Below, in pieces: positions 1-27,812 of a stretch of DNA of 32,000 nucleotides; positions within the stretch are counted from its first letter, which is position 1, and each line of letters begins with the position of its first letter. Under the pieces are notes generated by a model. It was given only the letters and a program-made list of their open reading frames with translations, was not told the DNA's origin and did not search any database. A program made the translations under genes and the position numbers. Origin of the DNA: Nitrosopumilaceae archaeon (GTDB lineage Archaea > Thermoproteota > Nitrososphaeria > Nitrososphaerales > Nitrosopumilaceae); NCBI GenBank assembly GCA_965214835.1, contig CBDCCK010000002.1, positions 3,054,430 through 3,086,429 on the forward strand, read 5' to 3'.

Positions 1-353
1 CATACGCGCAAACTTTGCATTATCTCAAGCAGGCGCGCAAAAAGTGGGGAAAGGTCCTGATGGCGATGGACAACGCAATACAGCACAAGACCAGCAAGGT
101 TCGCAGATACCTAAAGAAAAATCCCGACGTTGTCCTGCCGTACCTGCCGGTAGCCAGGCCGGAGCTGAGCGCCACAGAGGCAGTCTGGAAGGATGCCAAG
201 TACAGGCTGGTCACGCCGGCCTTTTATGACGCGGCGGATCACCTCAAAAGGGCCGTCTCGGAATACTTTAGGACGTGTTCCATCAAGATTGACATCTACA
301 GGTATCTTGAGCGCAGCGTGTAAGGGAGGCGAAATTTTCAATGACCATCAGTA
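1..353 (+). mobile_element. IS630-family insertion sequence, decayed copy running off the left edge (right end present)
   Basis: ORF 15..323 is roughly four-fifths identical by eye to the C-terminus of the 24154..24966 transposase. The right TIR ggcgaaattttcaatgaccatcagta (328..353) matches 24971..24996. Bases 1..20 show deletions relative to the full copy. TA follows at 354..355. Confidence 0.85.
15..323 (+). pseudogene. IS630-family DDE transposase, C-terminal fragment
   Basis: HYLKQ..GKVL.MDNA.QHKT.KVRRYLKKNPDVVL.YLPVARPELS..EAVWKDAKY...HLKRAVSEYFRTCSIK.DIYRYLERS aligns with 24154..24966. The upstream part is out of frame or deleted. Confidence 0.8.
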
Positions 354-4877: not shown

Positions 4878-4923
4878 GATCTAAACCACCTTACTTAAGC
4901 TTTAAGCACGACTTGCACGCCTA

Positions 4924-5956
4924 TTTCATATGATAATTAGTTCCGCCTAACATTTGTATCCTTCATCCATTTGGGGTCGCTTTTCCTGATCGCTTTTGTG
5001 GCCTCCCGGCTCCGGAACGCCATCCTGGGCGTCTCGGCATGCTTGATGTCAAGCGACCAGTGCGTCCTGCGCTCGTTGTAGAACTCGATGAACTCGTCTA
5101 CTTTGTCAAAGTGCGTCAGCTCCTTCTCAAGCGTTCCGAACCACCTCTCCAGCTTGCCGTTGGTCTGCGGATGGTACGGACGTGAGTTGAGCAGAGTGAT
5201 GTTGCGCTCCAACAGCTCGTCCTCAAACAGCGTGGGCATCCAGCTGCCCCCGGGGGGTGCCGCGCCTGGCCGACGTAAAGCAGCTGCCGTTGTCCGAGAG
5301 TATCTGGGCCGGCGTCCCGAACTCCCGGATGGCCCTGCGCAGCACCAAGACTGCGTTCTCCGATGTCGCGTGCTCAAATACGCCGAATCCGGTTATGCAC
5401 CGCGAAGAATCGTCAAGATACGCCTGCCAGATTGAGCTTTTGTAGGCGTGGATCCTTCATTTCGTGCCAGTCTGTGTGCCACATTGTGTTGTAATACATG
5501 CGCTCATAGCGCAGCCATTTGAGCTGTCTGGATCTTCCTGGCGAGCTGCCCGTGATTCCCTCGGCCTTCATGATCCCGTATACCTAATAGTAGCTTATCT
5601 GCCTGCGGCCCTCATGCGCAATGCCAGCCGCTCCGCACCCGACGGCATCTGGGAATATGCGTCAAGGACCGCCCTGACATCCCCGGGATCCATGCCCATG
5701 CCGGGCCTTCCTGCCCCGTTCTGCGGCAGGACCGTGCCGGATCTACGGAACCTGGCCCATATCTTCCCGACGTACCTGTCGCTGATGCCCAGCTCCCGGG
5801 CTATCTGCCTTGCAGGCACGCCCTTTTTTCTCTGCCTTTCTATGTACCGGAGCGACTTTTTCCCCAATCTTTTCCTCGCATTTTTTGATCGGTACAGCCT
5901 GAAATAATCCTTCAAAGTACGCCTGATCTTAGGCGGAACTAATTTTCGTATGATAG
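4924..5956 (-). mobile_element. Decayed insertion sequence with rve (integrase-core) DDE transposase, IS481-like
   Basis: Terminal inverted repeats: 4921..4950 ctatttcatatgataattagttccgcctaa versus 5929..5956 ttaggcggaactaattttcgtatgatag (16 bp perfect, about 25 bp imperfect). They enclose a fragmented transposase. Confidence 0.75.
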
Positions 5957-5969
5957 AGTACGTGGTCAT
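4937..5969 (-). pseudogene. rve-type DDE transposase, disrupted by an in-frame stop and frameshifts
   Basis: HTH ORF 5595..5969 (GVPARQIARELGISDRYV). Across 5377..5600 the frames read WHTDW and LSDNGSCF only after frame changes and a TAG. C-terminal ORF 4937..5377 carries PYHPQTNGKLERW. Confidence 0.75.
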
Positions 5970-6045
5970 CTGCCCCTAGCAATCATGTACGGATCTGCCT
6001 GCATCTGTGATCTTCATGCCCAGATAGGAGGACGTGACTTCAATT
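5958..6045 (+). mobile_element. MITE-A copy (about 90-bp palindromic element, TIR GTAyGnGGTCAyCTGCCCCT)
   Basis: Left arm gtacgtggtcatctgcccctagc and right arm gataggaggacgtgacttc. Homologous to 8114..8205 and 16744..16834. Confidence 0.6.
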
Positions 6046-6116
6046 CTGGCTAGGGGTTATCCTATTGCCCTCCTTGCTACCGTATAATACGGTACTTTTA
6101 TATCATATTTGATCGC

Positions 6117-6314
6117 ATGTATGGCATGCAAAATACAGCATTCCTTCAAAGAATGGCCTACGCAAAATCCTCTGCACGAGAAGTCAGATGCCATGTATGT
6201 GGGAGTGTTTGGAGGACGGATTTTCAATCACCGCCAAATCATTGCGAAATGACACTCCAGTGTTTTGCGACATTCGTTACAAGATGCAGTATAAGTGAGG
6301 GCAAGCCATCATGA
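6117..6314 (+). CDS. Small hypothetical protein (possible CxxC motif)
   Basis: 65-aa ORF whose stop overlaps the next start in ATGA (6311..6314). Contains CHVCG. No recognisable family. Confidence 0.3.
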   Translation: MYGMQNTAFLQRMAYAKSSAREVRCHVCGSVWRTDFQSPPNHCEMTLQCFATFVTRCSISEGKPS

Positions 6315-6697
6315 ACCCGCAGGACGATTCAAGAAGATTTAGGGAGATTGTGATGGACAACTCCTTTCTGATTGCAATAGTCGCGACAGGGGGAGTCATT
6401 CTGTCAGCTGGGTTGGATCCGTTTCGCTCAGAGATGCTGCAGGCCTTGGGAGGTGCCTTTATTATCGCCGGCTCCGTAGGAATATACATGATGCTGGCAA
6501 CGCGCCGGGTAGTAAGGAGCCTTCACAATCGGTTTGACGCACTCGATGATGCCCTGAAAACCCATACTGAAATCCTCAAGGAAATGGCCTCATCCCAGAA
6601 GGAAATGGCCTCATCCCAGAATCAAAACCATAGCGAGATGATTGGTGTCATGACAAGGGTGATCTCCTCCTTGGAAAGGATAGAGAAAAAACTCTGA
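6311..6697 (+). CDS. Small membrane protein with C-terminal coiled-coil-like tail
   Basis: 128-aa ORF with two hydrophobic helices (FLIAIVATGGVILSAGL, ALGGAFIIAGSVGIYMMLA) followed by a charged helical tail. Contains a tandem KEMASSQ duplication. Confidence 0.6.
   Translation: MNPQDDSRRFREIVMDNSFLIAIVATGGVILSAGLDPFRSEMLQALGGAFIIAGSVGIYMMLATRRVVRSLHNRFDALDDALKTHTEILKEMASSQKEMASSQNQNHSEMIGVMTRVISSLERIEKKL
6581..6622 (+). repeat. Tandem 21-bp duplication inside the CDS (KEMASSQ x2)
   Basis: gaaatggcctcatcccagaag followed directly by gaaatggcctcatcccagaat. Confidence 0.9.
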
Positions 6698-7083
6698 TGT
6701 GCTGTAAAACATCCCTACACTGCAAGACAGGAGGCTGAAAACCATGGTATGTAACTATCTTCCCAAGTGTTTCTTTTTGAACTTCTCTTGTAGTGCAAGA
6801 CAGGAGGTTGAAAGGAAGTTTGGATTTCGTAATGTGAGCGGGATAACCAGCCGCAGTCATGGTGCAGAACGTGTAGGAAATCATAGCAACGTAACACAAT
6901 ATCGGCATTACCAACAGCCATAATTAGCATCTGAAACGAGTGTTGACGTAACAGATCGGGCCCTGGAAGTTCAGGCATGAGTCTTATCACCGAAGATGCA
7001 TTCGCAGATGTAATTCATGCCTAAAGTCGTAAATCACTTCGAGTCTGAGCTGTTACAAACAAAGAGCAGTTGGAGACGACGGG

Positions 7084-7614
7084 TCAGCACCCATAGGATT
7101 GTGCCCATTCTGATGTCGCAAACTCACTGGCACTGCAAAGATCAGTGGGAAGATAGCCGTTGCCAGAGTCCAGCAGCGCCTGGTTTAGGTTCTGGCCGTT
7201 GCAGTATACGGCACCGACGATTCTTCCATAGCTGCCCTCCTGCTGTCCGTCATCCTCGTCAACCAGGACAGTCGAGCCGACAGGGCATGCGCCTTTTATG
7301 AACAGCGTGGCAGCCTCCCCTCCGTCCTCGTATTTCTCAGGTGCAAAGGACAGGGCAAGGCGAACCGACTGCCCGTCGACTTTGAGCGTATCGCCATCCA
7401 CGATCTCAGTGACCTGGCCTGAAAGGCACCTGGCCTCGCCGCTGCACTGAAACGTTCCGGGAATGGTAAACGCAAACATCACCCCGATCACGGCAAGCAT
7501 GATCGGGATGACTGCAAGCTGTTTTGGCTTCACACAGCATGGTGGCTTTACAAAAACAAAAGAATTTCCATCATGGAAAAATCCAAGGACAAGACTGCTT
7601 TCAAAGCAGGACAT
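7084..7614 (-). CDS. Membrane-anchored or secreted staphylococcal-nuclease (SNase/OB-fold) homologue with a variant active site
   Basis: VDGDTLKV...VRLALSFAPE...GSYGRIVGAVY...NLNQALLDSGNGY follows the SNase pattern, preceded by the hydrophobic anchor LAVIPIMLAVIGVMFAF. The longest ORF extends to 7686. The start at 7614 (M25) or 7500 is uncertain. Confidence 0.7.
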   Translation of the reverse strand: MSCFESSLVLGFFHDGNSFVFVKPPCCVKPKQLAVIPIMLAVIGVMFAFTIPGTFQCSGEARCLSGQVTEIVDGDTLKVDGQSVRLALSFAPEKYEDGGEAATLFIKGACPVGSTVLVDEDDGQQEGSYGRIVGAVYCNGQNLNQALLDSGNGYLPTDLCSASEFATSEWAQSYGC

Positions 7615-7731
7615 GGCAGGCGGGGAGGGCTGCGGGGCCAGCGGCATACGGCATGGCGGGGGATTTTGCAGGTCTTGGCGCCGCACATGCCATAGTATGT
7701 AATATCACATACAGTTGAAAATCAAACATTT

Positions 7732-7782
7732 GTACGAGGTCACCTGCCCCCATCAGCCAGGCACGAATTAGCGACCTAGTAC
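7732..7782 (+). mobile_element. MITE-A short copy
   Basis: gtacgaggtcacctgcccccatcagccaggcacgaattagcgacctagtac. Both arms are related to the 8114 and 16744 copies, with the interior shortened. Confidence 0.5.
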
Positions 7783-7791
7783 GATCTTTTA

Positions 7792-7900
7792 GCAACAGCT
7801 CGGGCTCGAAGTTGTTCCTGATTTCAGGCACGAATCTGCTCAAGGGGGATCCTCGAGGTGGCAAAACTCACACCTGAACTTCCAGAGCACGAGCTGCTAC
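7792..7900 (+). mobile_element. MITE-B: 109-bp element made of the fused left and right ends of the IS66-family element at 25017..26853
   Basis: gcaacagctcgggctcgaagttgttcctgatttcaggcacgaatctg aligns to 25017..25065. ctcaagggggatcctcgaggtggcaaaactcacacctgaacttccagagcacgagctgctac aligns to 26793..26853. Confidence 0.7.
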
Positions 7901-8113
7901 AAAAAAGCAAAGGTCACATGTTGTTTGTACTGGGTAACAGAGTCGAAGTTTTGATCAGGCTTGATCGTGATGGCAAAGAATTGTACTTTATGGATTGTAA
8001 CGATATTGGTACGCTGTAGCTAATTCTCGGAGATTATATGATGTGGCGTATCAAGTAAAAGGAATGATTTGATTGAATTTACTCTGATCCGTAAGCAGTG
8101 AATCGTCGTTATT

Positions 8114-8205
8114 GTGCATGGTCACCTGCCCCTGCCAACCAGGCGCGAATTGGCATGTATGACTATGGTTTTTGTGCCTGCCAATAAGGGGGCGTGATAT
8201 CGTAC
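8114..8205 (+). mobile_element. MITE-A copy
   Basis: gtgcatggtcacctgcccctgcc...aataagggggcgtgatatcgtac. The interior (ggcgcgaattggcatgta...) aligns with 16744..16834. Confidence 0.65.
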
Positions 8206-8269
8206 GATCATTTTTCATCAAAGTATGCCCGCCCTGGGGGTTTCGCATCGGTGATGCCAATGCAGTACA

Positions 8270-8923
8270 TTGAAATTAGATTCACAGGCACATGCCAGCA
8301 TGGATTCGGTGCAGAGGCTGTTTGACAGATGGTCAGATGTTGGCAGGGCAGAGTTGATGGAAAAAGAGCACGGAAGGCCGGTGAGGGAGTTTTTAAAAAA
8401 GGCGGATCTGAAAAAGCCGTTTACGTTTTTGGACATCGGCTGCGGAAACGGATGGGTCGTCAGGATGGTTTCGGGCCTAGACAGCTGCAAAAAGGCAACA
8501 GGAATAGACAAAAGCGAGAAAATGATCAGAAATGCCAGGTCAAAGATCTCCTCAAGAAAAGAGGAGTATTTTGTTGAGGACATAGATAGGTGGGGGACCA
8601 GGAGAAAGTTCGACAGGATATTTTCCATGGAGACCATATACTACACCGAATCGCCGGAGAGTACACTGAGGAAGATCTTCGGTCTGCTGAATCCAGGTGG
8701 GATGTTTTTTTGCGGTACCGACTTTTATGCAGACAACAGGGCAACCGCAGGCTGGTCTGAGAGGATGAGCCTGAGGATGCACCTGCTCTCAAGAAGGGAG
8801 TGGAGGGGACTGTTTGAGGATGCGGGGTTTGAGGCCAAAACAGCACTCATCAAAGACAAGGCAGACCGCAAAAAATGGAAGCGGGAGTTGGGAACCTTGT
8901 TCATCACGGGGACTAGGGACTAA
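8270..8923 (+). CDS. Class I SAM-dependent methyltransferase
   Basis: Motif I FLDIGCGNGWVVRMV and a post-I acidic residue (GIDKSEKM), then LLNPGGMFF. 8270 is a TTG. An ATG at 8300 (MDSVQRLF) is the more likely start. Confidence 0.8.
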   Translation: MKLDSQAHASMDSVQRLFDRWSDVGRAELMEKEHGRPVREFLKKADLKKPFTFLDIGCGNGWVVRMVSGLDSCKKATGIDKSEKMIRNARSKISSRKEEYFVEDIDRWGTRRKFDRIFSMETIYYTESPESTLRKIFGLLNPGGMFFCGTDFYADNRATAGWSERMSLRMHLLSRREWRGLFEDAGFEAKTALIKDKADRKKWKRELGTLFITGTRD

Positions 8924-8987
8924 GTTGTAGGGATATGGTTCCCTCCCATTAAGAGCCGGGGCATGAGGCTATGTTCTGGATTGTCGC

Positions 8988-9097
8988 CTTCCACTTGCCC
9001 TCACCCCTAATCCGGATTCCTGCGAGCTATCTGTCGACTTGGGCCGTATTGAATTATTCATCTTCCACTTGCCCTCACCCCTAATCCGGATTCCTGC
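8988..9097 (+). repeat. Two identical 36-bp direct repeats separated by a 38-bp spacer
   Basis: cttccacttgccctcacccctaatccggattcctgc occurs at 8988..9023 and 9062..9097. Each copy contains the 10-bp palindrome aatccggatt. Confidence 0.9.
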
Positions 9098-9823
9098 CCT
9101 GTCAGCTGTGTTCTTACAACTCAAGTCCCGCCCGCAAGAGTCTACCCCACAGGCGATACTGCTGGCCCGAGCCTTGATCACCATGCCCACCACGCCGCAT
9201 ATTCTGGAGGTGATAGACTCTTACGTCCCGCCCCCCAGATAGCTTCAAATAGATTCGGCGCTGCATGGGTCATAGGCGAGCTGGAGCACGACACGCTGCC
9301 ACGGCAGAGGAAACTCCTCCCTCCATACAGGAAATGTGACCTGGAGATGGGTAACCAGAGATGGTTGGAAACAGAACAGAAAACCAATCCCGCTGAAATT
9401 ACGATGACGGTGAAAAGCCCGAGATGTTCAGCTGCGGAATGAAAAATCTGCCCCACATGGAGCAAGGCCAAACAGAACCCCAAGTGCCTGTACTCGGTTC
9501 AGGTAGGCTGCAAAGCGAAATATCGTGAAAACAGAAGGAGGGTTACTCCCAGCACGCCTGGAATCTTTTTCCCTTGGCACGGTGCAGACGGTTTTCCCTC
9601 CCTCATGTCACATGCATGCATTCTGTCAGGTCCAGTCCTGCAATCGACGCACCAAAGGTCTTTGATCATCAAAAAGCGTCCTCATACACAGCTTGCGCCC
9701 ACATGAGCTCAAGAACTTTTGCTCGTCACCACATGCAGGACTCGTCGGATCCTGCAGGCACCTAAAGAGCAGAAGCTGCTTTGTGTGGCACTGACTTGGG
9801 ATTTGTCCTGACGGATTATGCAT

Positions 9824-10159
9824 TCATCCCCTTTTTCTCACTACCGCACCTACAACAGAGACCAGCACTCCGGCGATAAAGACTCCAATGCCAACTTTAC
9901 CCAGTACCCCAAATATGGGCAGGCTCTTTCCAACCTGTGGAGTAATCGGAGTGCCCGAGCTGCCAGATCGCATGACCACTTCGGGGGGGACGGGTACGAT
10001 TGTAAGCAAGCCGACAGCCATGCTGGCAACAAAGAGGCCAATTCCCGAGACAGACACGATGAGGCCGGCCCGCAGCAGATTCAATGCTATGTCATTCTCA
10101 AGGCTAGAAGGAGCCTGTGTGATCCTTGCAGACAGAAGCGCCGCACCTGCAGTCTGCAT
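9824..10159 (-). CDS. Small two-TM membrane protein (hypothetical)
   Basis: From the internal ATG at 10159 the product has two clear hydrophobic helices (GLIVSVSGIGLFVASMAVGLLTIV and IFGVLGKVGIGVFIAGVLVSVVGAVV). It overlaps the 3' end of the upstream gene in another frame. The long ORF form reaches 10306. Confidence 0.45.
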   Translation of the reverse strand: MQTAGAALLSARITQAPSSLENDIALNLLRAGLIVSVSGIGLFVASMAVGLLTIVPVPPEVVMRSGSSGTPITPQVGKSLPIFGVLGKVGIGVFIAGVLVSVVGAVVRKRG

Positions 10160-11480
10160 CACAAAGACACGAGCCCTGCATCGCGCAATCGCATTCGCTG
10201 CCAATATCGGCAGACGCCGCACAGCCACACGCTGCCTCCTGCTGAGCAGAGTCCAGCTGGGGGCTCTGTGGCGGGGGCGTGCTCTGTGAGCTCGACGAGT
10301 CCTCATAGACGCTGCGTGTCTGCTGATAGTCTGACTCGTCTCTCAGCTGCGCCTCGCCGCGGTTGGTCTTGTAGCCGCCGGAGCTCTCGCTAGTAGAATA
10401 TCCTACCAGCCGGGACGGGTCGATGCCGCTTTGTCCCTGGCCCTCCTCCTTTTTCATCTGCCTGTTGCTGTACACGAAAAATGCGCCTCCCCCGACTGCT
10501 GCCATACCGGCCATCCCGTAGACGATGGCCACGGGAAAGTCGCCGGTCGATGTTTGTGCATATCCCTCCGGAGGAGTAGGCAGTATGCCAAATATTTCAA
10601 TGCCGTCAAGACTGTCCAGCTGTGCAAACCCGATTGCGTGGACGTTTGCATTGTCAGCGGACTGGACGGTTCTTACCGTGTACTCTTGGTCGGCGCTAAA
10701 GGTTGCATGGAACTCCCGCTCCACCTGGATCCCCTCCCGGATGCTGCTCTCGCCCATCGTATAGCTGGAAACTACAAAGCCTGCAATCTCATCGTCCAGG
10801 CCAAACTGGGCGGCGTCTGCGTTGATGCCGGTCGGATCAAACAAAAAATGCCAGTTAGCTAGCGGCTGATCCCTGATAAAGTCAGCATTGATTAAATTAT
10901 CATGCAGTAGATCCTCTGCCTCGGAGCCACTGATGAGCGATGCCAGTGCTGGATCTTCTGATTCTATTGCAGAGAACGGATGGTTGATTTCAATGCCGTC
11001 GGCAATTACAGGATCCTGGATGGATATGCCCCTCCAGCCCATGTCAACTAGCGCCGGGTTCCGGCCGTCTGCTGCACGAATTACATAGCTTCCAATCTCT
11101 CCGGTGATCAGGATTTGAAAGTCAACTGCCGCAGAAACCGGGTTTCCCTTGAGGGTCGCAAGATAGTCCACGGCAAGGTTCGAAACCTGGGCATGGCTGC
11201 CGTCGCCTACAAGGTTTGCGTTGATTTGGTTGGCAATTGTCTGGGCCTCGGCAGGATCTGCAGTTGCGGTGACAGTCCAAGAGTCGCCGCGAAGGGAGTC
11301 TGCCACCTGTCCGCCGTCGGGATACTCGATGAAGATTGTTTTTTGATACCTGATCTTAAATTCGGATGTGTCGGTGTTTGGGTTGATTCTTGTCTCCAGT
11401 TGCGCGGCCTCGGCGGCAGAGAAGGTGCCAAATACGAGAATCGCCGCCACTAAAACCGAGAATAAAGCTGCCCCTTGCAC
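10104..11480 (-). CDS. Single-pass surface protein with a Cys-rich (CxC) cytoplasmic tail, unknown function
   Basis: 458-aa ORF with a GTG start and signal peptide QGAALFSVLVAAILVFGTFSAAEAA. It has a TM segment FPVAIVYGMAGMAAVGGGAFFVY, a Ser/Gln-rich linker, and the tail ACGCAASADIGSECDCAMQGSCLCDADCRCGASVCKDH. Confidence 0.8.
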   Translation of the reverse strand: MQGAALFSVLVAAILVFGTFSAAEAAQLETRINPNTDTSEFKIRYQKTIFIEYPDGGQVADSLRGDSWTVTATADPAEAQTIANQINANLVGDGSHAQVSNLAVDYLATLKGNPVSAAVDFQILITGEIGSYVIRAADGRNPALVDMGWRGISIQDPVIADGIEINHPFSAIESEDPALASLISGSEAEDLLHDNLINADFIRDQPLANWHFLFDPTGINADAAQFGLDDEIAGFVVSSYTMGESSIREGIQVEREFHATFSADQEYTVRTVQSADNANVHAIGFAQLDSLDGIEIFGILPTPPEGYAQTSTGDFPVAIVYGMAGMAAVGGGAFFVYSNRQMKKEEGQGQSGIDPSRLVGYSTSESSGGYKTNRGEAQLRDESDYQQTRSVYEDSSSSQSTPPPQSPQLDSAQQEAACGCAASADIGSECDCAMQGSCLCDADCRCGASVCKDHTGSF

Positions 11481-11592
11481 GAGTCAAATCCTTGGTCACT
11501 TACATTTAATCTTATCTTAAAAGGCGAATAACGATCAGGCTTTGAAAAGGTAATATTGAGCTACATAGCTTACCAGCTCGTTCTAAAAGAAA

Positions 11593-12513
11593 ATGATTAC
11601 GGTACTATCAGGCGGCACGGGCTCAGTCAAGCTAGTAAGGGGGCTAGTTGCGCAGGACGGCAGCGTCAGCATAGTCAGCAACGTAGGAGACAACTACTGG
11701 CTGTACGGCATGTACGTGTGTCCGGACGTCGACACGGTCATTTACGGCCTGGCAGACATTTTAGACCATGACAAGGGCTGGGGGGTCAAAAAGGACACCT
11801 TCAACTTTTTGAGGCAGATGGAGGTCTTCGGGGAGGAGACTTGGTTTAGGATTGGCGACAGGGACGCGGCAACCCACCTGATTCGGACCAACATGCTAAA
11901 GAACGGAAAAAACCTGAGCGACATTACGAAATGGATGTGTGAAAAGTTTGCAATAAGCGCAAAGATCATCCCGGTCACAGACAACACCATAGAGACTAGG
12001 ATCATCACCAACAAGGGGGAGCTGCACCTGCAGGAGTACTGGGTAAAATACAGGGGCATGGACGATGTCGAGGGGATCCAGTACATTGGGGCAGACAAGG
12101 CAAGGCCGAACCCGGAGGCGGTAAACGCGATTCATGACTCGGATCTGGTGATTCTGGCGCCAGGAAACCCGCTGACCAGCATAGGGCCGATGCTGCAGAT
12201 CAAGGGAATCAGAAAGGAGCTTTCAAAGATCAAAAAGAAGGTGGTGGCAGTCAGTCCGCTGATAGGAGACAAGGCGATAAGCGGTCCGGCGGCAAAGTAC
12301 ATGCAGGCTGCCGGAATCGAGTCAAACGCATACGGGCTGGCAAAGATGTACTCTGATGTTTGCTCCAATATAATCATAGACTCAAAGGACAGGCTGCTCT
12401 CAAAGAAGATCCAAAACTTGGACATGAAGGTATTTGATACAAAGATTACCATGAAGACCAAGCAGGCAGAGGATGCGCTTGCCTCGTTCATCCTAAAACA
12501 AGTCCACGTTTAG
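11593..12513 (+). CDS. cofD: 2-phospho-L-lactate transferase (LPPG:FO transferase), coenzyme F420 biosynthesis
   Basis: The N-terminus MITVLSGGTGSVKLVRGL and a 306-aa length are typical of CofD. cofC follows after a single nucleotide. Confidence 0.85.
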   Translation: MITVLSGGTGSVKLVRGLVAQDGSVSIVSNVGDNYWLYGMYVCPDVDTVIYGLADILDHDKGWGVKKDTFNFLRQMEVFGEETWFRIGDRDAATHLIRTNMLKNGKNLSDITKWMCEKFAISAKIIPVTDNTIETRIITNKGELHLQEYWVKYRGMDDVEGIQYIGADKARPNPEAVNAIHDSDLVILAPGNPLTSIGPMLQIKGIRKELSKIKKKVVAVSPLIGDKAISGPAAKYMQAAGIESNAYGLAKMYSDVCSNIIIDSKDRLLSKKIQNLDMKVFDTKITMKTKQAEDALASFILKQVHV

Positions 12514-12514
12514 C

Positions 12515-13162
12515 TTGCTCAAAATAGCGGTAATCATACCAGTCAAGACGTTTTCAAGGGCCAAGTCTCGGCTGGACCTGCCGCAAAAAGTCAGGAGCAG
12601 CCTGTGCGAGCTGATGCTAGATGAGCTGCTGCACACGCTGTCCATGTCGCCGCTAATTGAGAGGACAATCACAGTCACGGGGGATCCGGCGGCCGGAAGG
12701 ATTGCAGAAAAATACGGGTCGGTAGTCATCCCAGACAGAGAAGAGTCTGGGGTAAACGAGGCAGTCTCCCTGGCAGACGACCATGTAAGGGAGAACGGCA
12801 TAGGGGCGACCATAGTGCTGCCGCAGGACATACCGTTTACAAAAACCCAGGATATCGACTTTTTGCTCAGGGTTCAGATTCCGCCGAACTTTGTGACGGT
12901 TGTGCCCTCGCGCAGGTTTGACGGGACCAATGCTCTGGTCCGAATGCCCCACGACATCATGGGCACGTCATACGACCAGGACAGCTACCGGAGCCATGTC
13001 GAGGCTGCAAGGAGGCATACGCGAAACTGGTCTGTCCTGTTTGTAAGGAGGATGATGGTGGACATAGACGATGTCGAGGATCTAAGATACGCTCTAGAGC
13101 GAAACGAAAAGCCGGAGCTGTGTGAGAGGATCAGGAAGCTGGTAGGCCTGGAGGCGCCATAA
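12515..13162 (+). CDS. cofC: 2-phospho-L-lactate guanylyltransferase, coenzyme F420 biosynthesis
   Basis: TTG start. The N-terminus IAVIIPVKTFSRAKSRL is typical of CofC. 215 aa, tightly coupled to cofD. Confidence 0.8.
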   Translation: MLKIAVIIPVKTFSRAKSRLDLPQKVRSSLCELMLDELLHTLSMSPLIERTITVTGDPAAGRIAEKYGSVVIPDREESGVNEAVSLADDHVRENGIGATIVLPQDIPFTKTQDIDFLLRVQIPPNFVTVVPSRRFDGTNALVRMPHDIMGTSYDQDSYRSHVEAARRHTRNWSVLFVRRMMVDIDDVEDLRYALERNEKPELCERIRKLVGLEAP

Positions 13163-13163
13163 A

Positions 13164-13412
13164 GTGGCAAGCGCGCGCAAGACAGGAGCTGGAATTGGCT
13201 ATGTTTATTCCGTATATGATCAATATCCCGGTGATAGTGGTTCCCCGGTTGGAAAGCTAACTGGAGGGGATTTCACTGTACATGGAATGCACGTAGGTCT
13301 TGCTGATTCAGGTTTCTACGACCAACCAGCTTGCTCTCAAGGCGGCAAATATTCCAAGTTTATCACGTACGACAAAATACAAAGCGTGTTAGGCATGGTA
13401 GGAAAGACATGA
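13164..13412 (+). pseudogene. C-terminal fragment of a trypsin-like (S1-type) serine protease
   Basis: Contains the catalytic-serine motif PGDSGSPV followed by VHGMHVG. The frame opens only at 13146, so the His/Asp-bearing N-terminal domain is absent. The stop overlaps the next start in ATGA. Confidence 0.45.
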
Positions 13413-14116
13413 GGCATCCTCCTTTTTTTCTTTTTTTACTATTGCTTGTGCCAAGTACGGTGATTTTTGCCGAGTTGCATGATGAAGAAATGACATCCTC
13501 TAAACAAACCGAGGCATGTGAGTACCATTCAAAGTATCCAAATGAGTTATTCAATTTATGTGAATACAAACTGGATTGTGAGGGATTAGAATTTACTTAT
13601 GAAGGGGGAAGAAATGTATTGGAAAAAGATTATCTCACTCAACTATTTTTACAAAATAATCCGTGGGGAAGTATTAACACTGGAAATATAATAGGAAACT
13701 TTGATGTAGGAAACGTTTGGTTGGTTGGTGATAAAATCCATCATGAAGATAAAAATCTGGGAATTGGCATGAACATGTGTAATGATATCACCAGGTATTC
13801 CTATCAGGATTTGATTTTACGAATATATGAAAAAGGAGACCATGGAAAAGCAGTTTTAAATGTGGAAGGGAAAAACATAACTGACTCGGCGGTACTGGCA
13901 GGAGAAGGCAAATATGAAATTGCTAAAAGAATCATCGGCAAGCATGCCTCCCCAAAAGTTCAGATAAATGAATTTGGAATTCCATCAAACAGGATACACT
14001 GTAATGACGGGCTTGAATTATTTGAACGTAGCAACAATGTCCTTGTATGCATCAAACCTCAAACATTTGAAAAACTGGTGGAAAGGGGATTCGACATTAA
14101 GCACTATCCTTCATAG
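13409..14116 (+). CDS. Secreted hypothetical protein encoded in a low-G+C islet
   Basis: Signal peptide MRHPPFFLFLLLLVPSTVIFA from the ATG at 13409 (the longest ORF starts at 13331). About one-third G+C by eye versus well over half in the flanks. C-terminal motif CNDGLELFERSNNVLVCIKPQTFEKLVERGF. Confidence 0.75.
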   Translation: MRHPPFFLFLLLLVPSTVIFAELHDEEMTSSKQTEACEYHSKYPNELFNLCEYKLDCEGLEFTYEGGRNVLEKDYLTQLFLQNNPWGSINTGNIIGNFDVGNVWLVGDKIHHEDKNLGIGMNMCNDITRYSYQDLILRIYEKGDHGKAVLNVEGKNITDSAVLAGEGKYEIAKRIIGKHASPKVQINEFGIPSNRIHCNDGLELFERSNNVLVCIKPQTFEKLVERGFDIKHYPS

Positions 14117-14199
14117 CCGGTCTTCCCAGTAGCCCGAAATTGCCAATTTTGACCGAGGCAGATCAACAAGGTGCGTCCCAGAAGGCCAGTAGTCCATAG

Positions 14200-15326
14200 G
14201 TATGAGATCACCTACCCCTAGATTATTTTGGCCGCCTCAGCCGCGATGGACTTGCCCTGCATCCCCCACGTCTACACGCATGTATTGAACCATCCATGCC
14301 TTTCCATCCAGGCCAGGCCGCCCTTGATCTGGCCGCTTATCTTGAATTGAAGCACGACGGGGCGCAGCGCCCGCTCTGCACCGTTGCTGGTGGGCTCGAC
14401 ACCCTCGTATTCCAGAAACGCAAACATGTACGGCAGGGCCCTGTGCATCCTCTTGAGGGGGTGGCTCCGGCGGGCCGCCCCCATGCATCAACGTATCCGA
14501 ACAGTATATTCTGCATGTCGGTCTCAAACCGCCGGCGCAGATCCGGCGAGTGCCGCCCCATCAGCCCGCTGGCCCTGCCCATCCCCGTCCTCTCCTCGAG
14601 CTCCCAAAGACTTTCCTCGGACAGCTTGTCCCAGCCCTCAAGACACCCCTTGGCATCCTCGAACAGCTGCTGCATCTGCCGGTACAGGACTCCTGCAAAC
14701 ATCGGGCGCCCTTTTTCTGCGATATATACGGGAGGAACCGCAGCTCGTGCTCCCAGCACCGCCGGAGCCTTCCCAACAGCCCGAGCTCCTCGTATGCGGG
14801 ATATCCGTCCGATGTGACGACGCCCCAGTACCCGCCCATGTACTGGTTCAGGATCCTAGCGCTCCTAGTGTCTGCATGTATCATGAACATGCCCACCGCC
14901 GGCAGCATGGCCCGCGTCCATCCCAGCCTGCCTGCCAGGTTGATCCCCGTCTCGTCTATGCAGACTGTCTTGGCTTTTTACCTTCTTGGCGATGTCCTCT
15001 GCAGGCTCCATGGCATCAGAGACGCGTCCCGGGATGTTGATTATCGTTGACTAGCATGTATCCTCATGGGACCGGATAAGCGTGCGATCCTGTTGCTGGG
15101 AATGTCATCTGCGCGCGGCTCGGTGGCGATTGACTGCGCTCTTGCCGTAGCCGCCGCTCTTTGGCAGGTCGTTGGGGACAGCATCATCTCCCTGAGCGAT
15201 TCTGCAGATGCCTAGATCTCACAAACTATGAGAGGCTGGCCTTTCATAATGCCTATCCGGCGCTCACACATGGATCAGTATCGCCATCAATGTTTAACCT
15301 GCTACGAGGTGCAGGTGATCTCATAC
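14200..15326 (-). mobile_element. Decayed, internally shortened IS66-like element with both TIRs retained
   Basis: TIRs are gtatgagatcacctacccct (14200..) and the reverse complement of gaggtgcaggtgatctcatac (..15326), 14 bp perfect and 18/20 overall. Minus-strand frames read CIDETGINLAG, GYWGVVTSDGYPAYEELG, RCWEHELR and FLEYEGVEPTSNGAERALRPV only across several frameshifts. Confidence 0.7.
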
Positions 15327-15384
15327 GATGCCGTGCCGCAGCTCAGAGCAGCAGAGTCAGGCCAGTCAAAAACAGATGCGGTGC

Positions 15385-16374
15385 CTAGCGGGCTTCCAGG
15401 CCGGATCGCCTTGCATTGAAACGGCCAAGCACCAAGAACAGGATGGATATTGCGCCGGATGCGACAAAAAGCAGCTCCAGGCTGCCAAGCAGTGAGTGGG
15501 AGTACGCATCATCCAAGGAAATGTCGTTTACAAACGCGACAAAGTAGACGTATGAGAGGACGAAATAGTTTGTAGCCCAGTGCAGCATTATTGCGGCCAA
15601 CAGCCCGTACCGATAGTATACCCAGCCAATGATCACGCCGGCGGCGGATGCCTGGGCAAACTTGCCACCGCCCCATGGCTCGCCCGAAAGCACGTGGGCC
15701 AAGCCAAACAGGATGCCGACTGCCGCAATCAGCGCAAGCACGCGCCCCGGGCCTGCAGCGTCCAGATTCTCAAAGGGATTCCACAGGGATGCTGCAAGCC
15801 TCCCAGGCGAGGCCCTGCGGCCGAACATCAGGTAAAGGGGCAGTCCGATCAGGATTACGCGGAACCCGATCTCCTCTACGAGGGGCGCCAGGCTGGCCGA
15901 AAAAAACTGCGTCAGATCGTTGTCAAAACTCGGAGGCTCTATGGCTATTCCAAAGGAGCCCTGAACCGCATCGACTACGGCAGAGACAACAACCAAAACC
16001 CCAAACCACTGAAGCATCGAGACCAGGTAGTTTGACGAGGAGTCCCTTCCAGATGACAGGATGAGGGCAAGCGACTTGATGAAGTTTTGCCCGGGGCCCA
16101 GGATGCCAATGGCAAACAGGATTACAAACACCGACCAGATCACGATAAAGCCGTCCCCAATTGCAACCTCAAACGGAAGCGGTTCAAGCAGGGACTCGAT
16201 CCCAGAATAGACGTACGCCAGCGGATACTCGTGCGTGATATCCCGGCCGACGTCGGAATTGAAAAAGACGTACGCCCCGACCGGAAAGGACAGCAGCATC
16301 ATTCCAAAGATTATCGACAGTAGTGCAGAGTGCGGAATCCCAAGTCCCCGGAGTATTCTGTCAGTTTCCTGCAA
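15385..16374 (-). CDS. CPBP family (CAAX/Abi-type) intramembrane metalloprotease
   Basis: Multi-TM 329-aa ORF with motifs EEIGFRVIL (EExxxR), FGLAHV (FxxxH) and HWATNY (HxxxN). TTG start 7 nt after the SUI1 stop. Confidence 0.85.
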   Translation of the reverse strand: MQETDRILRGLGIPHSALLSIIFGMMLLSFPVGAYVFFNSDVGRDITHEYPLAYVYSGIESLLEPLPFEVAIGDGFIVIWSVFVILFAIGILGPGQNFIKSLALILSSGRDSSSNYLVSMLQWFGVLVVVSAVVDAVQGSFGIAIEPPSFDNDLTQFFSASLAPLVEEIGFRVILIGLPLYLMFGRRASPGRLAASLWNPFENLDAAGPGRVLALIAAVGILFGLAHVLSGEPWGGGKFAQASAAGVIIGWVYYRYGLLAAIMLHWATNYFVLSYVYFVAFVNDISLDDAYSHSLLGSLELLFVASGAISILFLVLGRFNARRSGLEAR

Positions 16375-16381
16375 TTCTGGT

Positions 16382-16690
16382 CTAGTGCAGCTCTATTGAG
16401 GACTCTGCAAACCCCAAGTCGACAAGCGTGTCCTTGAGGGTATCGCGATGATCGCCTTGCAGGAAGATGTATCCCTCCTTGGCGGTGCCGCCGCACGCGT
16501 ACTTGTTCTTCAAGTCCTTTGCGACGCGCTCTAGATCGTTTAGCTTTGGATCAAGGCCCTCAATCATGGTGCCCTTTTTCTTAAAGCGGCGGGTTTCTAG
16601 CCGGATGATAATTTTCGTACTGTCCTTGGCTAGGTCGCCACAGGCACACAGATCTTCGGGAAGGCCACACGTATTACAAATTACTGCCAT
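16382..16690 (-). CDS. sui1: Translation initiation factor aSUI1 (eIF1 homologue) with N-terminal Zn-ribbon
   Basis: MAVICNTCGLPEDLCACG followed by IRLETRRFKKKGTMIEGL...LKNKYACGGTAKEGYIFLQGDHRD. The ORF track form starts at 16714, but the ATG at 16690 is preferred. Confidence 0.9.
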   Translation of the reverse strand: MAVICNTCGLPEDLCACGDLAKDSTKIIIRLETRRFKKKGTMIEGLDPKLNDLERVAKDLKNKYACGGTAKEGYIFLQGDHRDTLKDTLVDLGFAESSIELH

Positions 16691-16743
16691 TCGTTCGTTA
16701 CAATTCCCCCACACACACTATTAAGCCTTTTAGTCGCCACTGG

Positions 16744-16834
16744 GTATGTGGTCACCTGCCCCTATCAATAGGCATGAATTGGCATGTACAATGTGATTTT
16801 CGTACCTAGATAGCAAGGGGACGTGACCACGTAC
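16744..16834 (+). mobile_element. MITE-A copy (best preserved)
   Basis: gtatgtggtcacctgcccctatc ... gatagcaaggggacgtgaccacgtac. The arms are inverted repeats, total length 91 bp. Confidence 0.7.
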
Positions 16835-16841
16835 GCCACTG

Positions 16842-17488
16842 GGCAATTGGCTAGGTTGAGCACACGGGCCCGGGTGGGAAGCAGGCACGAATCCTATGCT
16901 GCCGCAGGCACCCAGGCCAGATTGGCCGGTGCATCCGGCCCGCGCATGCACCATGTCCTGATGCACGATATCAAGGTGCCAAACATCCCCCATGCCGGCA
17001 GGGATGCGCAGCCTTTACCGCACGCCCCCCTGTATGACTGCCCTGCGCAGCGCCCTCTCGGCCCTGCTGTTGGTAGGCTCCATGCCCGGATACCTGACAA
17101 AGGTGAACAGGTACGGGCCGCAGCTGCAAGCGTGCCTCCAAGGCTGTACCACATCTAGGCATACTGAGCGGCTAGGGCCTCTGCGGGCGATATCATTTCG
17201 GTGCAGTCGTGATCGGGGGGCATGTGCTTGGCCTCGCAGAGTACGGGCTGCAGACGCCTGTACAGTGATTCCCCGGTACATCCCTTGGGTACATGCTGCC
17301 CGGTAAGCCAGACTATTATCCAATCCCCGTCTGTGATGGCCTCATCCTTGCCGGACTCGGCCATGGTGCGGGCCCAGCTCATCGCGCAATATCTGGGATC
17401 CCTGAGCCAGGCAATGGGTCAGGCATGACCGGGGCGCTTATCGCGTGGTGATCAAAAATTGGCCTTGTGCTCGGCCCAAGCGGTTACA
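16842..17488 (-). pseudogene. IS66-like transposase remnant (C-terminal third), truncated element
   Basis: Minus-strand frames read LFTFVRYPGMEPTNSRAERALRRAV and TLISCIRTWCMRGPDAPANL across frameshifts. The subterminal 42-bp block 17447..17488 recurs at 17987..18028. Confidence 0.6.
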
Positions 17489-17869: not shown

Positions 17870-18080
17870 GCACGTAAGGACTAAGACAGGCATGGATCCT
17901 AGATTGCCGCAGGCACCCAGGCCAGCTTCAGATACGTCCAGTCCGCGTATGATCCAGGTTGTGTAGCCTGCGCATATGGATCTAGGGGTGATCAGAAATT
18001 GGCCTTGTGCCCAGCCCAAGCGGTTGCATTCAGTATCGTCATCAATGCTTAACTTGCTGTGAAGGGCAGCTGACATCATG
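17852..18080 (-). mobile_element. IS66-like remnant with an internal deletion of about 470 bp relative to 16842..17488
   Basis: 17852..17925 aligns with 16842..16915 (ggcaat...tgagcac...tgccgcaggcacccaggccag). 17987..18028 matches 17447..17488 with 4 mismatches. 18031..18080 aligns with the right end of 14200..15326. Confidence 0.55.
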
Positions 18081-23740: not shown

Positions 23741-23910
23741 TGGCAATCTCAAAAAAACTCATTTCCTTTTCTAAAGATTTTAAAAAGCAGTATCCAAACA
23801 GGTCAAAACCCGTACGTGATGAAATTGATGCAATTCTTAAGGATGTTGGAAAGATGGTGCAATACATCAGAAAAAATGATCTGCCGCTCAGAAAAGCTAA
23901 ACTATACTGA
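23740..23910 (+). pseudogene. 5' part of a small ORF interrupted by the IS630 insertion (continues at 24999..25016 and 26862..26927)
   Basis: MAISKKLISFSKDFKKQYPNRSKPVRDEIDAILKDVGKMVQYIRKNDLPLRKAKL runs into the IS630 TIR, which supplies Y-stop. Confidence 0.5.
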
Positions 23911-23981
23911 TGATCATTGAAAATTTCGCCTGATTACACATCTTGTAAAGGTTTATAGCTCCCCACCATGTCACTCCCGGC

Positions 23982-24185
23982 ATGAACAAGACGAAAATCC
24001 TCACGGATGCCATGCATGTCGAAAAGGATCTCAAGATTCACACCAGAATCATGGCGGTGCGCTCCGTACTGCTTGGCAACACCACCGCACAGACTGCAGA
24101 GATTGCCGACGTGACACAGCGTACCGTACAGATGTGGATCAAGAGATTCGAGCTTGACGGCATCGACGGCCTCCGTGACTCCTAA
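23982..24185 (+). CDS. IS630-family transposase, N-terminal HTH part
   Basis: TAQTAEIADVTQRTVQMWIKRFELDGIDGLRD is an HTH typical of IS630/Tc1 transposases. It ends in TAA while the homologous reading continues in the +1 frame. Confidence 0.75.
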   Translation: MNKTKILTDAMHVEKDLKIHTRIMAVRSVLLGNTTAQTAEIADVTQRTVQMWIKRFELDGIDGLRDS

Positions 24186-24966
24186 CAGGGACAAAAAACC
24201 AAAGGTTCCGGTCGGCAGGATAAAAAAGATCGCCACAAAGTTGCGTAGGATGGAAAAGCTCACCCCGAAGAAGCTGTGCAACCGGGTGCGCCGCAGGCTG
24301 CATGTCACATACAGCGTGGGAAGCATCAGAAGAATCCTGCGCACGATGGGATTCTCGCCAAAGACGTCAACCACCAGGCTTGCAGATGCTGCCGACGCAA
24401 AGGCGGTAAGACGGTGGCAGGGGGTGGCAAGAACCGCGATCAAGCTTGCAAAAAGGCGCGGATTTAGGATAGCCGTACAGGACGAGTCGATATTCGTCAG
24501 TACGGGAAGGGACGGCAGAAAGTTCTGGTCGCCCGTGGGGGACAGGATCGAGGTGCAACGATCCGGCAGAAGGGAGCGCGTCGCGGTATACGGAACGATT
24601 GCAGACGACGGAACCCGGCTGATGCGCACATACGACAAGTTCAACAGCGCAAACTTTGTGCATTATCTCAAGCAGGTGCACAAAAAGCGGGGAAAGGTTC
24701 TGATTGTGATGGACAACGCAGCACAGCACAAGACCGGAAAGGTCCGCAGGTACCTGAAGAAAAATCCAGACGTCGTCCTGCTGTACCTGCCGGTAGCCAG
24801 GCCGGAGCTGAGCGTCATAGAGGCAGTCTGGAAGGATGCCAAGTACGGGCCGGTCACGTCGGCATTTTACGAGACGGTAGATCACCTCAAAAGGGCCGTC
24901 TCGGAATACTTTAGGACGTGTTCCATCAAGGTTGACATCTATAGGTACCTTGAGCGCAGCTTGTAA
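24154..24966 (+). CDS. IS630-family transposase, DDE (DDE_3-like) part
   Basis: PNRDKKPKV..., IAVQDESIF, VAVYGTIADDG and LIVMDNAAQHKT give the DDE_3 pattern. Joining to the upstream ORF needs a +1 shift within 24154..24183. Confidence 0.8.
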   Translation: MTASTASVTPNRDKKPKVPVGRIKKIATKLRRMEKLTPKKLCNRVRRRLHVTYSVGSIRRILRTMGFSPKTSTTRLADAADAKAVRRWQGVARTAIKLAKRRGFRIAVQDESIFVSTGRDGRKFWSPVGDRIEVQRSGRRERVAVYGTIADDGTRLMRTYDKFNSANFVHYLKQVHKKRGKVLIVMDNAAQHKTGKVRRYLKKNPDVVLLYLPVARPELSVIEAVWKDAKYGPVTSAFYETVDHLKRAVSEYFRTCSIKVDIYRYLERSL

Positions 24967-26719: not shown

Positions 26720-26861
26720 TACCCGGAAGGCAGATCCTGGGATCTTTATGTGTTGTGATTCCTCCAGATCTTCCTGCTAACCCGGGGTGCTGCTCAAGGG
26801 GGCCTCCAAGGTGGCAAGATTCACGCCTGAACTTCCCGAGCCCGACCTGTTACTAAAAAAG

Positions 26862-27523: not shown

Positions 27524-27812
27524 CTAATACGTGGCTGAGCTCGTGCTGTTCCCGATGACGTTTTTGGATGCCCGGGGCCTGTCCCTGCGGCCGAACCCGT
27601 CTAGCGCTGCGACCGCGCTGCCCGTGTTCCTGCACGGCATCAGGAACCTTACCCCCTCTCCTGCAGCATGGCAATCACCACCGGCAGGGGGGACGTGACC
27701 TCGTACTCGAGGAATGTTTTTGGGAACCGGAAGGAAAAAAGCCGCGGCTTGATGCCCCGTGCGCTCAAAAAATGAAAAGGACGTTTAATTACGTCCGCAG
27801 CTGAAACAAGGC

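What the first reader, a model, noticed from the sequence alone, without database searches (positions are those of the whole stretch)
5958..16834. MITE-A family: palindromic elements of about 90 bp sharing termini with a decayed IS66-like element
At least four copies (5958..6045, 7732..7782, 8114..8205, 16744..16834) share arms GTAyGnGGTCAyCTGCCCCT and AGGGGaCGTGAyyaCGTAC. The 8114 and 16744 copies align across their whole interiors. The same terminus (gtatgagatcacctacccct) forms both TIRs of the decayed IS66-like element at 14200..15326, which suggests the autonomous parent. Possible half-sites also occur near 27688..27702. Four to five copies in 32 kb is a high density, and all sit in intergenic or promoter-proximal positions.
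Basis: seen in the sequence. Interest (0 to 1): 0.6.

Follow-up and report, generated by a model that had tools for sequence, protein, structure and literature searches.

The report
IS66-type MITE family in an archaeon
The repeats are real copies of a 93-base non-coding jumping element (a MITE) that has spread to about 160 sites in the genome of an ammonia-oxidising archaeon, almost certainly by borrowing the transposase of a one-gene IS66-family insertion sequence. It is a clean example of an ordinary kind of mobile DNA.

Summary
The shared core motif occurs 6 times in the window against 0.64 expected.

Genome-wide (3.22 Mb, an ammonia-oxidising archaeon of the Nitrosopumilaceae):
- The 20-nt terminus occurs 303 times, against 8 in a reversed-genome control.
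- A profile search finds 267 loci. About 159 of them are free, near full-length 91-95 bp elements.
- 76 of the 177 near full-length hits have perfect 8-bp target-site duplications.
- 15 groups of identical copies sit at different loci.
- In-silico excision of four printed copies restores paralogous empty sites exactly.

The partner is a 1635-bp single-ORF IS66-family element, here called ISa. It has the same 20-nt ends and the same 8-bp duplication. Six copies carry an intact 516-codon frame. The window's element at 14200-15326 is a dead, internally deleted copy of it.

- 5958-6072 is not a free MITE. It is the right-end remnant of a second IS66-type element that carries a MITE-A-like module.
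- 7732-7784 is an internally deleted copy.
- The MITE interior is not derived from ISa; only the terminal repeats are shared.
- The density in the window is only about twice the genome average.

New MITE copies repeatedly inserted exactly against the end of a resident copy.

By sequence, the scan has not seen this family before. By kind, it has reported IS66-type MITEs in other archaeal genomes. Verdict: a new member of a known kind.

The parts
16744..16834 (+). Intact young MITE-A copy (subfamily c41, 15 members). It is flanked by a perfect 8-bp target-site duplication GCCACTGG at 16736-16743 and 16835-16842. It lies 18 bp upstream of the TATA-like box (16719-16725, minus strand) of the SUI1/aIF1 gene.
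   Evidence: nhmmer E 9.8e-22, all 93 profile positions; hairpin -40.8 kcal/mol, z -5.35
8114..8205 (+). Old, diverged full-length MITE-A copy (a singleton in the clustering). No target-site duplication remains. No copy is present at the syntenic place in the related genome G041.
   Evidence: (E 5.1e-16)
7732..7784 (+). Internally deleted MITE-A copy: the left 41 nt joined to the last 10 nt of the right end. No target-site duplication. It is directly followed by a MITE of a different family (MITE-B, about 7793-7900).
   Evidence: (profile positions 1-59)
5958..6072 (+). Right-end remnant of an ISc-type IS66-family element. It consists of a MITE-A-like module followed by the ISc terminal repeat. 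It is not a free MITE-A. The body of the IS is missing, and another IS (4921-5958, 33-nt inverted ends) abuts it.
   Evidence: I5; cluster 7
27680..27706 (+). Solo MITE-A right end (…GGGGGACGTGACCTCGTAC).
14200..15326 (-). Decayed copy of ISa (1127 bp instead of 1635). The transposase is frameshifted, about 500 bp are missing, both 20-nt ends are present, and there is no target-site duplication.
   Evidence: (fragment ORF hits DDE_Tnp_IS66, 7e-6)
18030..18080 (+). Further decayed ISa-like right end (80% identical to 15275-15324).
   Evidence: D11; weak
1..5 (+). Last 5 nt of a MITE-A copy that straddles the window start (genome C2:3054343-3054434, duplication GCGCAAAC).

Best explanation
MITE-A is a non-autonomous DNA transposon of 91-95 bp with no coding capacity. 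It has 20-nt imperfect terminal inverted repeats (GTAYGNGGTCACCTRCCCCT at one end and GTATGTGGTCACGTCCCCTT at the other) and a hairpin-forming interior. It is moved in trans by the DDE transposase of ISa, a 1635-bp single-ORF IS66-family element of the ISBst12 type in the same genome. The transposase recognises the shared 20-nt ends, cuts at the GTA... tips and inserts into a weakly AT-rich target with an 8-bp stagger, which produces the 8-bp duplication. Shown here: end identity, the same duplication length, precise filled and empty sites, identical copies at many loci, intact transposase genes, and co-occurrence of MITE and transposase in related genomes. Inferred: that ISa rather than a sister element supplies the enzyme, and that movement is copy-and-paste rather than cut-and-paste. 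After insertion the copies drift neutrally and are tolerated mainly between genes.
For: Abundance: the terminus occurs 303 times against 8 in a reversed-genome control. 74 inverted pairs lie 91-95 bp apart, and 55 of them have a perfect 8-bp duplication.
Census: the profile search finds 267 loci, 177 of them near full-length. 76 of the 177 have perfect duplications, against none with fewer than 3 mismatches in a shifted control.
Age structure: young subfamilies of 52, 15, 14 and 6 copies sit beside about 65 diverged singletons. 15 groups of 100% identical copies lie at different loci.
Mobility: 37 copies have a paralogous sequence that spans the in-silico excision junction. Four printed examples restore the empty site exactly, with one copy of the 8 bp.
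Partner: ISa has the same 20-nt ends and 8-bp duplications, six intact 516-codon frames and IS66 family hits.
Shared use of ends: a 1771-bp unit made of a truncated MITE-A left end, 82 bp of other DNA and ISa is flanked by the duplication TTTGTAAG. A MITE end and an IS end therefore appear to have been used together.
Co-occurrence: MITE-A was found only in G002 among 40 relatives, and in G041. G041 also holds the 98%-identical transposase. Same-genus genomes with only transposases of 30% identity or less lack MITE-A.
Location: 88% of free copies lie in predicted intergenic DNA, which is 24% of the genome. 12% of excised sites lie deep in coding sequence, against 52% of random sites.
Against: One MITE arm differs from the ISa end at 3 of 20 positions, so recognition of that arm is assumed. 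The interior is unrelated to ISa, so the origin of the MITE is not a simple deletion of ISa. Other IS66-type transposases (44-48% and about 80% identical) exist in the genome and could contribute. The gene set used for the intergenic statistics is a rough home-made one.
Confidence: 0.85

Rival explanations
1. MITE-A is a true MITE but is mobilised by another IS66-type transposase of the genome. Candidates are the roughly 80%-identical ISa variant and the ISc element, whose right end carries a MITE-A-like module. On this view ISa only shares ancestry of its ends.
For: The MITE-A interior is homologous to the ISc sub-terminal module and to MITE-C, not to ISa. Several IS66-type lineages coexist in the genome.
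Against: The free copies are cut exactly at GTAYG tips that are identical to ISa ends for 20 nt. ISc and MITE-C are cut at a different, outer terminus (GTAAYAGGTTAGCC...). There is a composite of a MITE end and an ISa end with its own duplication.
Confidence: 0.1
2. The copies are kept by the host as structured RNA or DNA hairpins, for example regulators, terminators or small RNAs, and are not merely selfish DNA.
For: The hairpin is stable (-40.8 kcal/mol, z -5.35). Copies lie near promoters. MITE-A inserted independently upstream of the SUI1 gene in two species.
Against: Private substitutions in the young subfamilies are as frequent in paired columns (0.52 per column) as in unpaired ones (0.62), n = 53. 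There is no Rfam match. There is no fixed offset to TATA-like motifs. Orientation bias is not significant (27 against 41) and class bias is weak. The old copy at 8114 is absent from the syntenic site in G041.
Confidence: 0.04
3. The repeats are not transposon-derived. They could be REP/BIME-like palindromes spread by a tyrosine (RAYT) transposase, CRISPR-like repeats, or repeats made by recombination or by assembly error.
For: They are short palindromic intergenic repeats.
Against: The 8-bp duplications and exact empty sites are hallmarks of DDE transposition. The termini match an IS66-family IS. The copies are dispersed rather than arrayed with spacers. The same family occurs in two further assemblies.
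Confidence: 0.01

Closest known systems
ISBst12 group of the IS66 family (ISBst12; ISDge4 of Deinococcus geothermalis, PMC12898284)
   Same: ISa has one transposase ORF with the IS66 DDE domain and no tnpA or tnpB. Its inverted ends begin with GTA, and it makes an 8-bp direct repeat on insertion. ISDge4 likewise has a 449-aa transposase, GTGACT/GTAACT ends and an 8-bp repeat.
   Different: ISa is archaeal and its transposase is at most 46% identical to anything outside its own lineage. Its ends read GTATG or GTACG. It is accompanied by a large non-autonomous family. No IS66-derived MITE paper turned up in the library searched.
Prokaryotic MITEs that share only the terminal repeats with their IS ('type II' MITEs); also the archaeal Sulfolobus SM elements (named from my own knowledge) and MITEPsy1 (PMC3189936)
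   Same: Small, non-coding, with terminal inverted repeats, a target-site duplication of the partner's length, many copies, mostly intergenic, and hairpin-forming.
   Different: The partner family here is IS66 rather than IS630, IS5 or IS1. The interior is shared with a second IS66-type lineage (ISc and MITE-C). The host is an ammonia-oxidising archaeon.
IS66-type MITEs reported earlier by this scan in other archaeal genomes (e1-2574590, e1-4170570 and others)
   Same: Elements of about 92 bp with 8-bp duplications, a single-ORF IS66 partner and an ammonia-oxidising archaeal host.
   Different: No sequence look-alike of MITE-A was found in the scan's index. The fixed 'promoter docking' offset reported for some of those families is not seen here.
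Insertion sequences that target their own ends (for example IS30, named from my own knowledge)
   Same: New MITE-A copies repeatedly landed exactly against the tip of a resident copy and re-used its flanking 8 bp.
   Different: This has not been described for the IS66 family as far as I know. Here it is inferred from five arrays in two genomes, not from an assay.

Membership tests
MITE (prokaryotic miniature inverted-repeat transposable element) | Short (under about 300 bp) and non-coding | tested here: met
   Elements are 91-95 bp. Too short to encode a transposase.
MITE (prokaryotic miniature inverted-repeat transposable element) | Terminal inverted repeats | tested here: met
   20-nt arms matching at 17 of 20 positions, consistent across 74 strict pairs and 177 profile hits.
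MITE (prokaryotic miniature inverted-repeat transposable element) | Target-site duplication of fixed length | tested here: met
   Perfect 8-bp duplication in 76 of 177 hits and 1 mismatch in 10 more. The shifted control has none with fewer than 3 mismatches.
MITE (prokaryotic miniature inverted-repeat transposable element) | Evidence of insertion (filled against empty sites) | tested here: met
   37 paralogous empty sites were found, and four are shown base for base.
MITE (prokaryotic miniature inverted-repeat transposable element) | Ends shared with an autonomous element that encodes a transposase | tested here: met
   ISa ends are identical over 20 nt, the duplication length is the same, and six copies have intact ORFs.
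MITE (prokaryotic miniature inverted-repeat transposable element) | Mobilisation in trans demonstrated experimentally | not testable with these tools
   Needs a transposition assay. Read data were unavailable.
Deletion-derivative ('type I') MITE of ISa | Interior made of the two sub-terminal regions of the parent IS | tested here: not met
   Positions 21-46 of either MITE arm score no better than shuffles against the ISa ends (p 0.10-0.98).
IS66 family, ISBst12 group (for ISa) | Transposase with the IS66 DDE domain | tested here: met
   PF03050 at 5e-30. NF033517 scores 193.1 bits against a cut-off of 180.
IS66 family, ISBst12 group (for ISa) | Single ORF, with no tnpA or tnpB accessory genes | tested here: met
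   One 510-aa ORF fills 1533 of the 1635 bp. No TnpB_IS66 (PF05717) match anywhere in the genome.
IS66 family, ISBst12 group (for ISa) | 8-bp target duplication and inverted ends beginning with GTA | tested here: met
   Five of six intact copies have perfect 8-bp repeats. The ends read GTATGA or GTATGT. ISDge4 serves for comparison.
REP/BIME elements (RAYT-mobilised) | No target-site duplication, and an associated Y1 (RAYT) transposase | tested here: not met
   8-bp duplications and DDE-type ends are present. No search for a RAYT gene was run.

The most novel reading that the evidence does not exclude
The single-ORF IS66-type transposase of this lineage has a self-end targeting mode: it places new copies exactly against the tip of a resident copy, re-using the resident's flanking 8 bp as target. 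This builds head-to-tail MITE arrays out of different subfamilies. Three junctions are seen in this genome where about 0.07 are expected, and two more are seen in a related genome. A second point goes with it. The hairpin interior shared by MITE-A, MITE-C and the ISc right end may be a portable sub-terminal cassette with a role in transposition, rather than filler.
Probability: 0.3. Interest if true: 0.5.

Novelty: new member of a known kind. Interest (0 to 1): 0.35.

Why it matters
The finding documents, with base-level filled and empty sites, a large and recently active MITE family driven by a poorly studied transposase group, the single-ORF IS66 (ISBst12) type. The host is an ammonia-oxidising archaeon whose genome, at 3.2 Mb and 52.6% G+C, is about twice the size of most family members searched (0.8-1.8 Mb). 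A recent survey found the highest IS load of 17,237 archaeal genomes in a 'Nitrosopumilus sp.' MAG but did not analyse MITEs (PMC13343696). Elements like this one therefore add to the mobile-DNA load and to genome expansion in that lineage. For annotation, about 270 loci can now be masked as MITE-A, and several apparent MITEs can be recognised as IS ends. The end-abutting insertions and the MITE-plus-IS composite offer testable hints about IS66-family target choice and end use, both of which remain little understood.

Tried and rejected
2. Metagenome scan with the right-arm pattern: 22 hits, none a MITE-A by profile search, so all are chance matches.
3. Rfam on the whole window: only archaeal RNase P RNA, nothing on the MITEs.
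4. Promoter docking, a lead from earlier scan notes: there is no fixed-offset TATA-like motif next to 86 copies with duplications. The target shows only a weak AT-rich, roughly palindromic preference.
5. MITE interior as a deletion derivative of ISa: no similarity beyond the terminal repeat.
6. Post-insertion selection on the hairpin: private substitutions are equally frequent in paired and unpaired columns. Power is low, n = 53.
7. Orthologous empty sites in relatives: G041 is only about 78% identical in genes, so intergenic DNA cannot be aligned precisely. Paralogous empty sites within the genome were used instead.
8. Bias towards promoter-facing intergenic regions: weak. Observed 48 divergent, 24 convergent and 68 tandem, against about 38, 33 and 70 expected by length. 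My own chi-square is about 5.2 with 2 d.f..
9. A review of archaeal IS elements that I recalled (PMC1847376) is not held.
10. No paralogous empty site was found for the 1771-bp MITE-plus-ISa composite.
Full report
**Observation.** The core GGTCAYCTGCCCCT with up to two mismatches occurs six times in the window: at the four copies and at both ends of the element at 14200-15326. The expectation is 0.64, and none of 100 shuffles reached six. The 8114 and 16744 copies align end to end. The 'half-site' near 27688 is a genuine solo right end.

**Host.** The window lies at C2:3054430-3086429 of a 3.22-Mb genome with 52.6% G+C. The genome encodes archaeal AmoA (1.4e-115) and an archaeal 16S rRNA. The nearest public records holding the same transposase are titled 'MAG: Nitrosopumilus sp.'. 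The host is therefore an ammonia-oxidising archaeon of the Nitrosopumilaceae with an unusually large genome. Most family members searched are 0.8-1.8 Mb.

**Genome-wide census.**
- The 20-nt terminus GTAYGNGGTCRYCTRCCCCT, with up to 3 mismatches, occurs 303 times against 8 in the reversed genome. 74 inverted pairs are 91-95 bp apart, and 55 of them have a perfect 8-bp direct repeat at the tips.
- A profile built from these copies finds 267 distinct loci, 177 of them near full-length.
- 76 of the 177 have perfect 8-bp duplications and 10 more have one mismatch. A control with the right flank shifted by 20 bp has none with fewer than three mismatches.
- Clustering gives young subfamilies of 52, 15, 14 and 6 copies, most with intact duplications, and a tail of about 65 diverged singletons without them. 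This is the burst-and-decay pattern expected of a transposon.
- Fifteen groups of 100% identical copies lie at different loci.
- 18 of the 177 hits are not free elements (see 'A second lineage' below), which leaves about 159 free near full-length copies.

**Proof of insertion.** For each copy with a duplication I removed the element and one copy of the 8 bp in silico, then searched the genome with the joined flanks. 37 copies have a paralogue that spans the junction. Four examples printed base for base show the empty site with a single copy of the 8 bp, at 98-100% flank identity.

**The autonomous partner.**
- Pairs of the same terminus about 1.6 kb apart define ISa, a 1635-bp element with 8-bp duplications.
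- It has one 510-aa ORF that hits Pfam DDE_Tnp_IS66 (5e-30) and NCBIfam transpos_IS66 above its curated cut-off.
- No IS66 TnpB is found in the genome, so ISa is of the single-ORF ISBst12 type. That type is described for ISDge4 with GTA... ends and an 8-bp repeat (PMC12898284).
- Six copies keep an intact 516-codon frame and a dozen more are broken.
- The window's element at 14200-15326 is one of the broken copies. It is about 90% identical to ISa over the first 860 bp or so, is frameshifted, lacks about 500 bp, and retains both ends.

**Link between MITE and IS.**
- The left MITE arm is identical to the ISa ends for 20-21 nt. The right arm differs at three positions.
- Beyond the terminal repeat there is no similarity to ISa. 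MITE-A is therefore not a deletion derivative of today's ISa, and it shares only the ends.
- A 1771-bp unit made of a truncated MITE-A left end, 82 bp of other DNA and an ISa copy is flanked as a whole by the duplication TTTGTAAG. The inner ISa end has no duplication of its own. The simplest reading is that a MITE end and an IS end were used together by one transposase.
- Among 40 relatives, MITE-A was found only in one same-genus genome (G002, a fragmentary assembly). It is also abundant, with at least 40 copies, in G041, which holds a 98%-identical transposase.
- Same-genus genomes with only distant IS66 transposases (30% identity or less) have no MITE-A.
- Outside this lineage the closest transposase is 46% identical.

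**A second lineage explains the 5958 copy.**
- Many profile hits cover only the interior of the model. They belong to a 117-bp family, here called MITE-C, with different outer ends (GTAAYAGGTTAGCCCCTGCCTAG). Its IS, here called ISc, is 1.6-1.9 kb, has about 16 copies and also makes 8-bp duplications.
- The right end of ISc carries a complete MITE-A-like module just inside its own terminal repeat. Fourteen near-identical copies of that end were among the 177 hits.
- The window's 5958 copy aligns with this ISc end up to about 6072. Its three closest relatives are all preceded by ISc body sequence.
- In the window that body is missing, and another IS with 33-nt inverted ends (4921-5958) abuts the remnant.

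**The other window copies.**
- 16744-16834 is young and intact, with the duplication GCCACTGG.
- 8114-8205 is old, and no copy is present at the syntenic place in G041.
- 7732-7784 is an internal-deletion derivative.

**Where the copies sit.**
- With a rough home-made gene set of 2971 genes and 76% coding density, 140 of 159 free copies are intergenic.
- Only 12% of excised sites lie deep in coding-like sequence, against 52% of random positions.
- The duplications are AT-rich (38% G+C against 52.6% for the genome). The reconstructed target shows only a weak A-rich/T-rich palindromic preference.
- There is no fixed offset to TATA-like motifs, so the 'promoter docking' reported by earlier scan notes for other IS66-type MITEs is not seen here.
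- The 16744 copy sits 18 bp upstream of a conserved TATA-like box of the SUI1 gene. G041 has an independent MITE-A insertion upstream of the same gene, with a different duplication (CGTACACG), a different subfamily and a different distance.
- The window's density is about twice the genome mean of 1.75 full-length copies per 32 kb.

**Host function.** The element folds into a long hairpin (-40.8 kcal/mol, z -5.35). However, private substitutions within young subfamilies are as common in paired as in unpaired columns, Rfam has no match, and orientation bias is not significant. I find no evidence for domestication.

**Tandem arrays.**
- A triple array at C2:1055139-1055431 has every member separated by the 8-mer AAATATTG (one spacer has lost its last base). 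A double at C2:1782874-1783067 and two doubles in G002 have the same layout. In each, one member carries a duplication that is exactly the 8 bp abutting its neighbour's tip.
- In both G000 arrays the neighbouring members that were typed belong to different subfamilies, so those are separate insertions and not duplications.
- My estimate under random intergenic insertion is about 0.07 such junctions, against three observed in this genome.
- This suggests that the transposase can target the junction of a resident copy.

**Literature and earlier notes.** Searches found no paper describing IS66-derived MITEs or MITEs in ammonia-oxidising archaea. A 2026 survey reports the highest archaeal IS load in a 'Nitrosopumilus sp.' MAG but does not treat MITEs (PMC13343696). 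The scan itself has already reported IS66-type MITEs of about 92 bp in other archaeal genomes, though none with this sequence.

**Verdict.** This is a real, recently active MITE family with a clearly identified IS66-type partner. It is a new member of a known kind. The end-abutting insertions and the interior module shared with ISc are modest extras.

Noticed in passing
window 9276-9557 (+): Archaeal RNase P RNA (Rfam RF00373, 185.9 bits, full length). The two perfect 36-bp repeats at 8988-9023 and 9062-9097 lie just upstream of it.
   Followed up: no
window 25017-26853 and 7793-7900: A third IS66-type element (ISb, about 1837 bp, 22-nt ends GTAACAGGTCGGGC..., transposase fragment hitting PF03050 at 4e-24) and its roughly 108-bp MITE-B. 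Further end fragments lie at 6948-6991 and 26810-26853.
   Followed up: partly
window 23900-25001 and 16-357: An IS630-like element (DDE_3 plus HTH_33 transposase, 32-nt inverted ends), with a second partial copy at the window start (300 nt, 90% identical).
   Followed up: no
window 4921-5958: An IS of about 1038 bp with 33-nt inverted ends and an rve_3 integrase-core ORF. It abuts the ISc-end remnant at 5958.
   Followed up: no
genome C2:1055139-1055431 (L046), C2:1782874-1783067 (L047), G002 C118:55-248 (L044), G002 C24:13891-14084 (L045): Head-to-tail MITE-A arrays in which neighbours are separated by exactly the 8-bp duplication (one spacer in the triple has lost a base). In the two G000 arrays the typed neighbours belong to different subfamilies. 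This implies repeated insertion against a resident copy's tip.
   Followed up: partly
genome C2:914467-916237 (L018): A 1771-bp composite of a truncated MITE-A left end, 82 bp of other DNA and an ISa copy, flanked as a unit by the duplication TTTGTAAG.
   Followed up: partly
genome C2:251580-254201 (L017): A 2.6-kb segment bounded by a full MITE-A copy and a solo arm, with a 7-bp direct repeat (AAAGATT). The cargo has no transposase and includes a DUF3426 protein. It may be a MITE-bounded composite transposon.
   Followed up: partly
genome C2:638911-639094, C2:1345333-1345515 and C2:1524706-1525906: MITE-A copies that themselves carry insertions at a TA. Two hold a MITE of about 91 bp with TAGTGACGATT... 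ends. One holds a 1.1-kb IS. All three keep their outer 8-bp duplications, and the third has a 99% paralogous empty site.
   Followed up: partly
genome, about 16 ISc copies (e.g. C2:599384-601181) and about 20 MITE-C copies (e.g. C2:1817205-1817320): A second pair of IS66-type IS and MITE, with ends GTAAYAGGTTAGCCCCTGCCTAG. The right end of ISc embeds a MITE-A-like module, so the MITE-A and MITE-C interiors are homologous.
   Followed up: partly
window 30893 onwards (-), to about 45478 in window numbering: An open frame of about 4860 codons that runs far beyond the window end and has a very high coding score. It is probably a giant surface protein.
   Followed up: no
window 16690-16743 and L015 1830-1880: A conserved promoter-like block (AAGGCTTAATAGTGTG on the gene strand) upstream of SUI1/aIF1 in two species. 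Each species has its own independent MITE-A insertion just upstream of it.
   Followed up: partly
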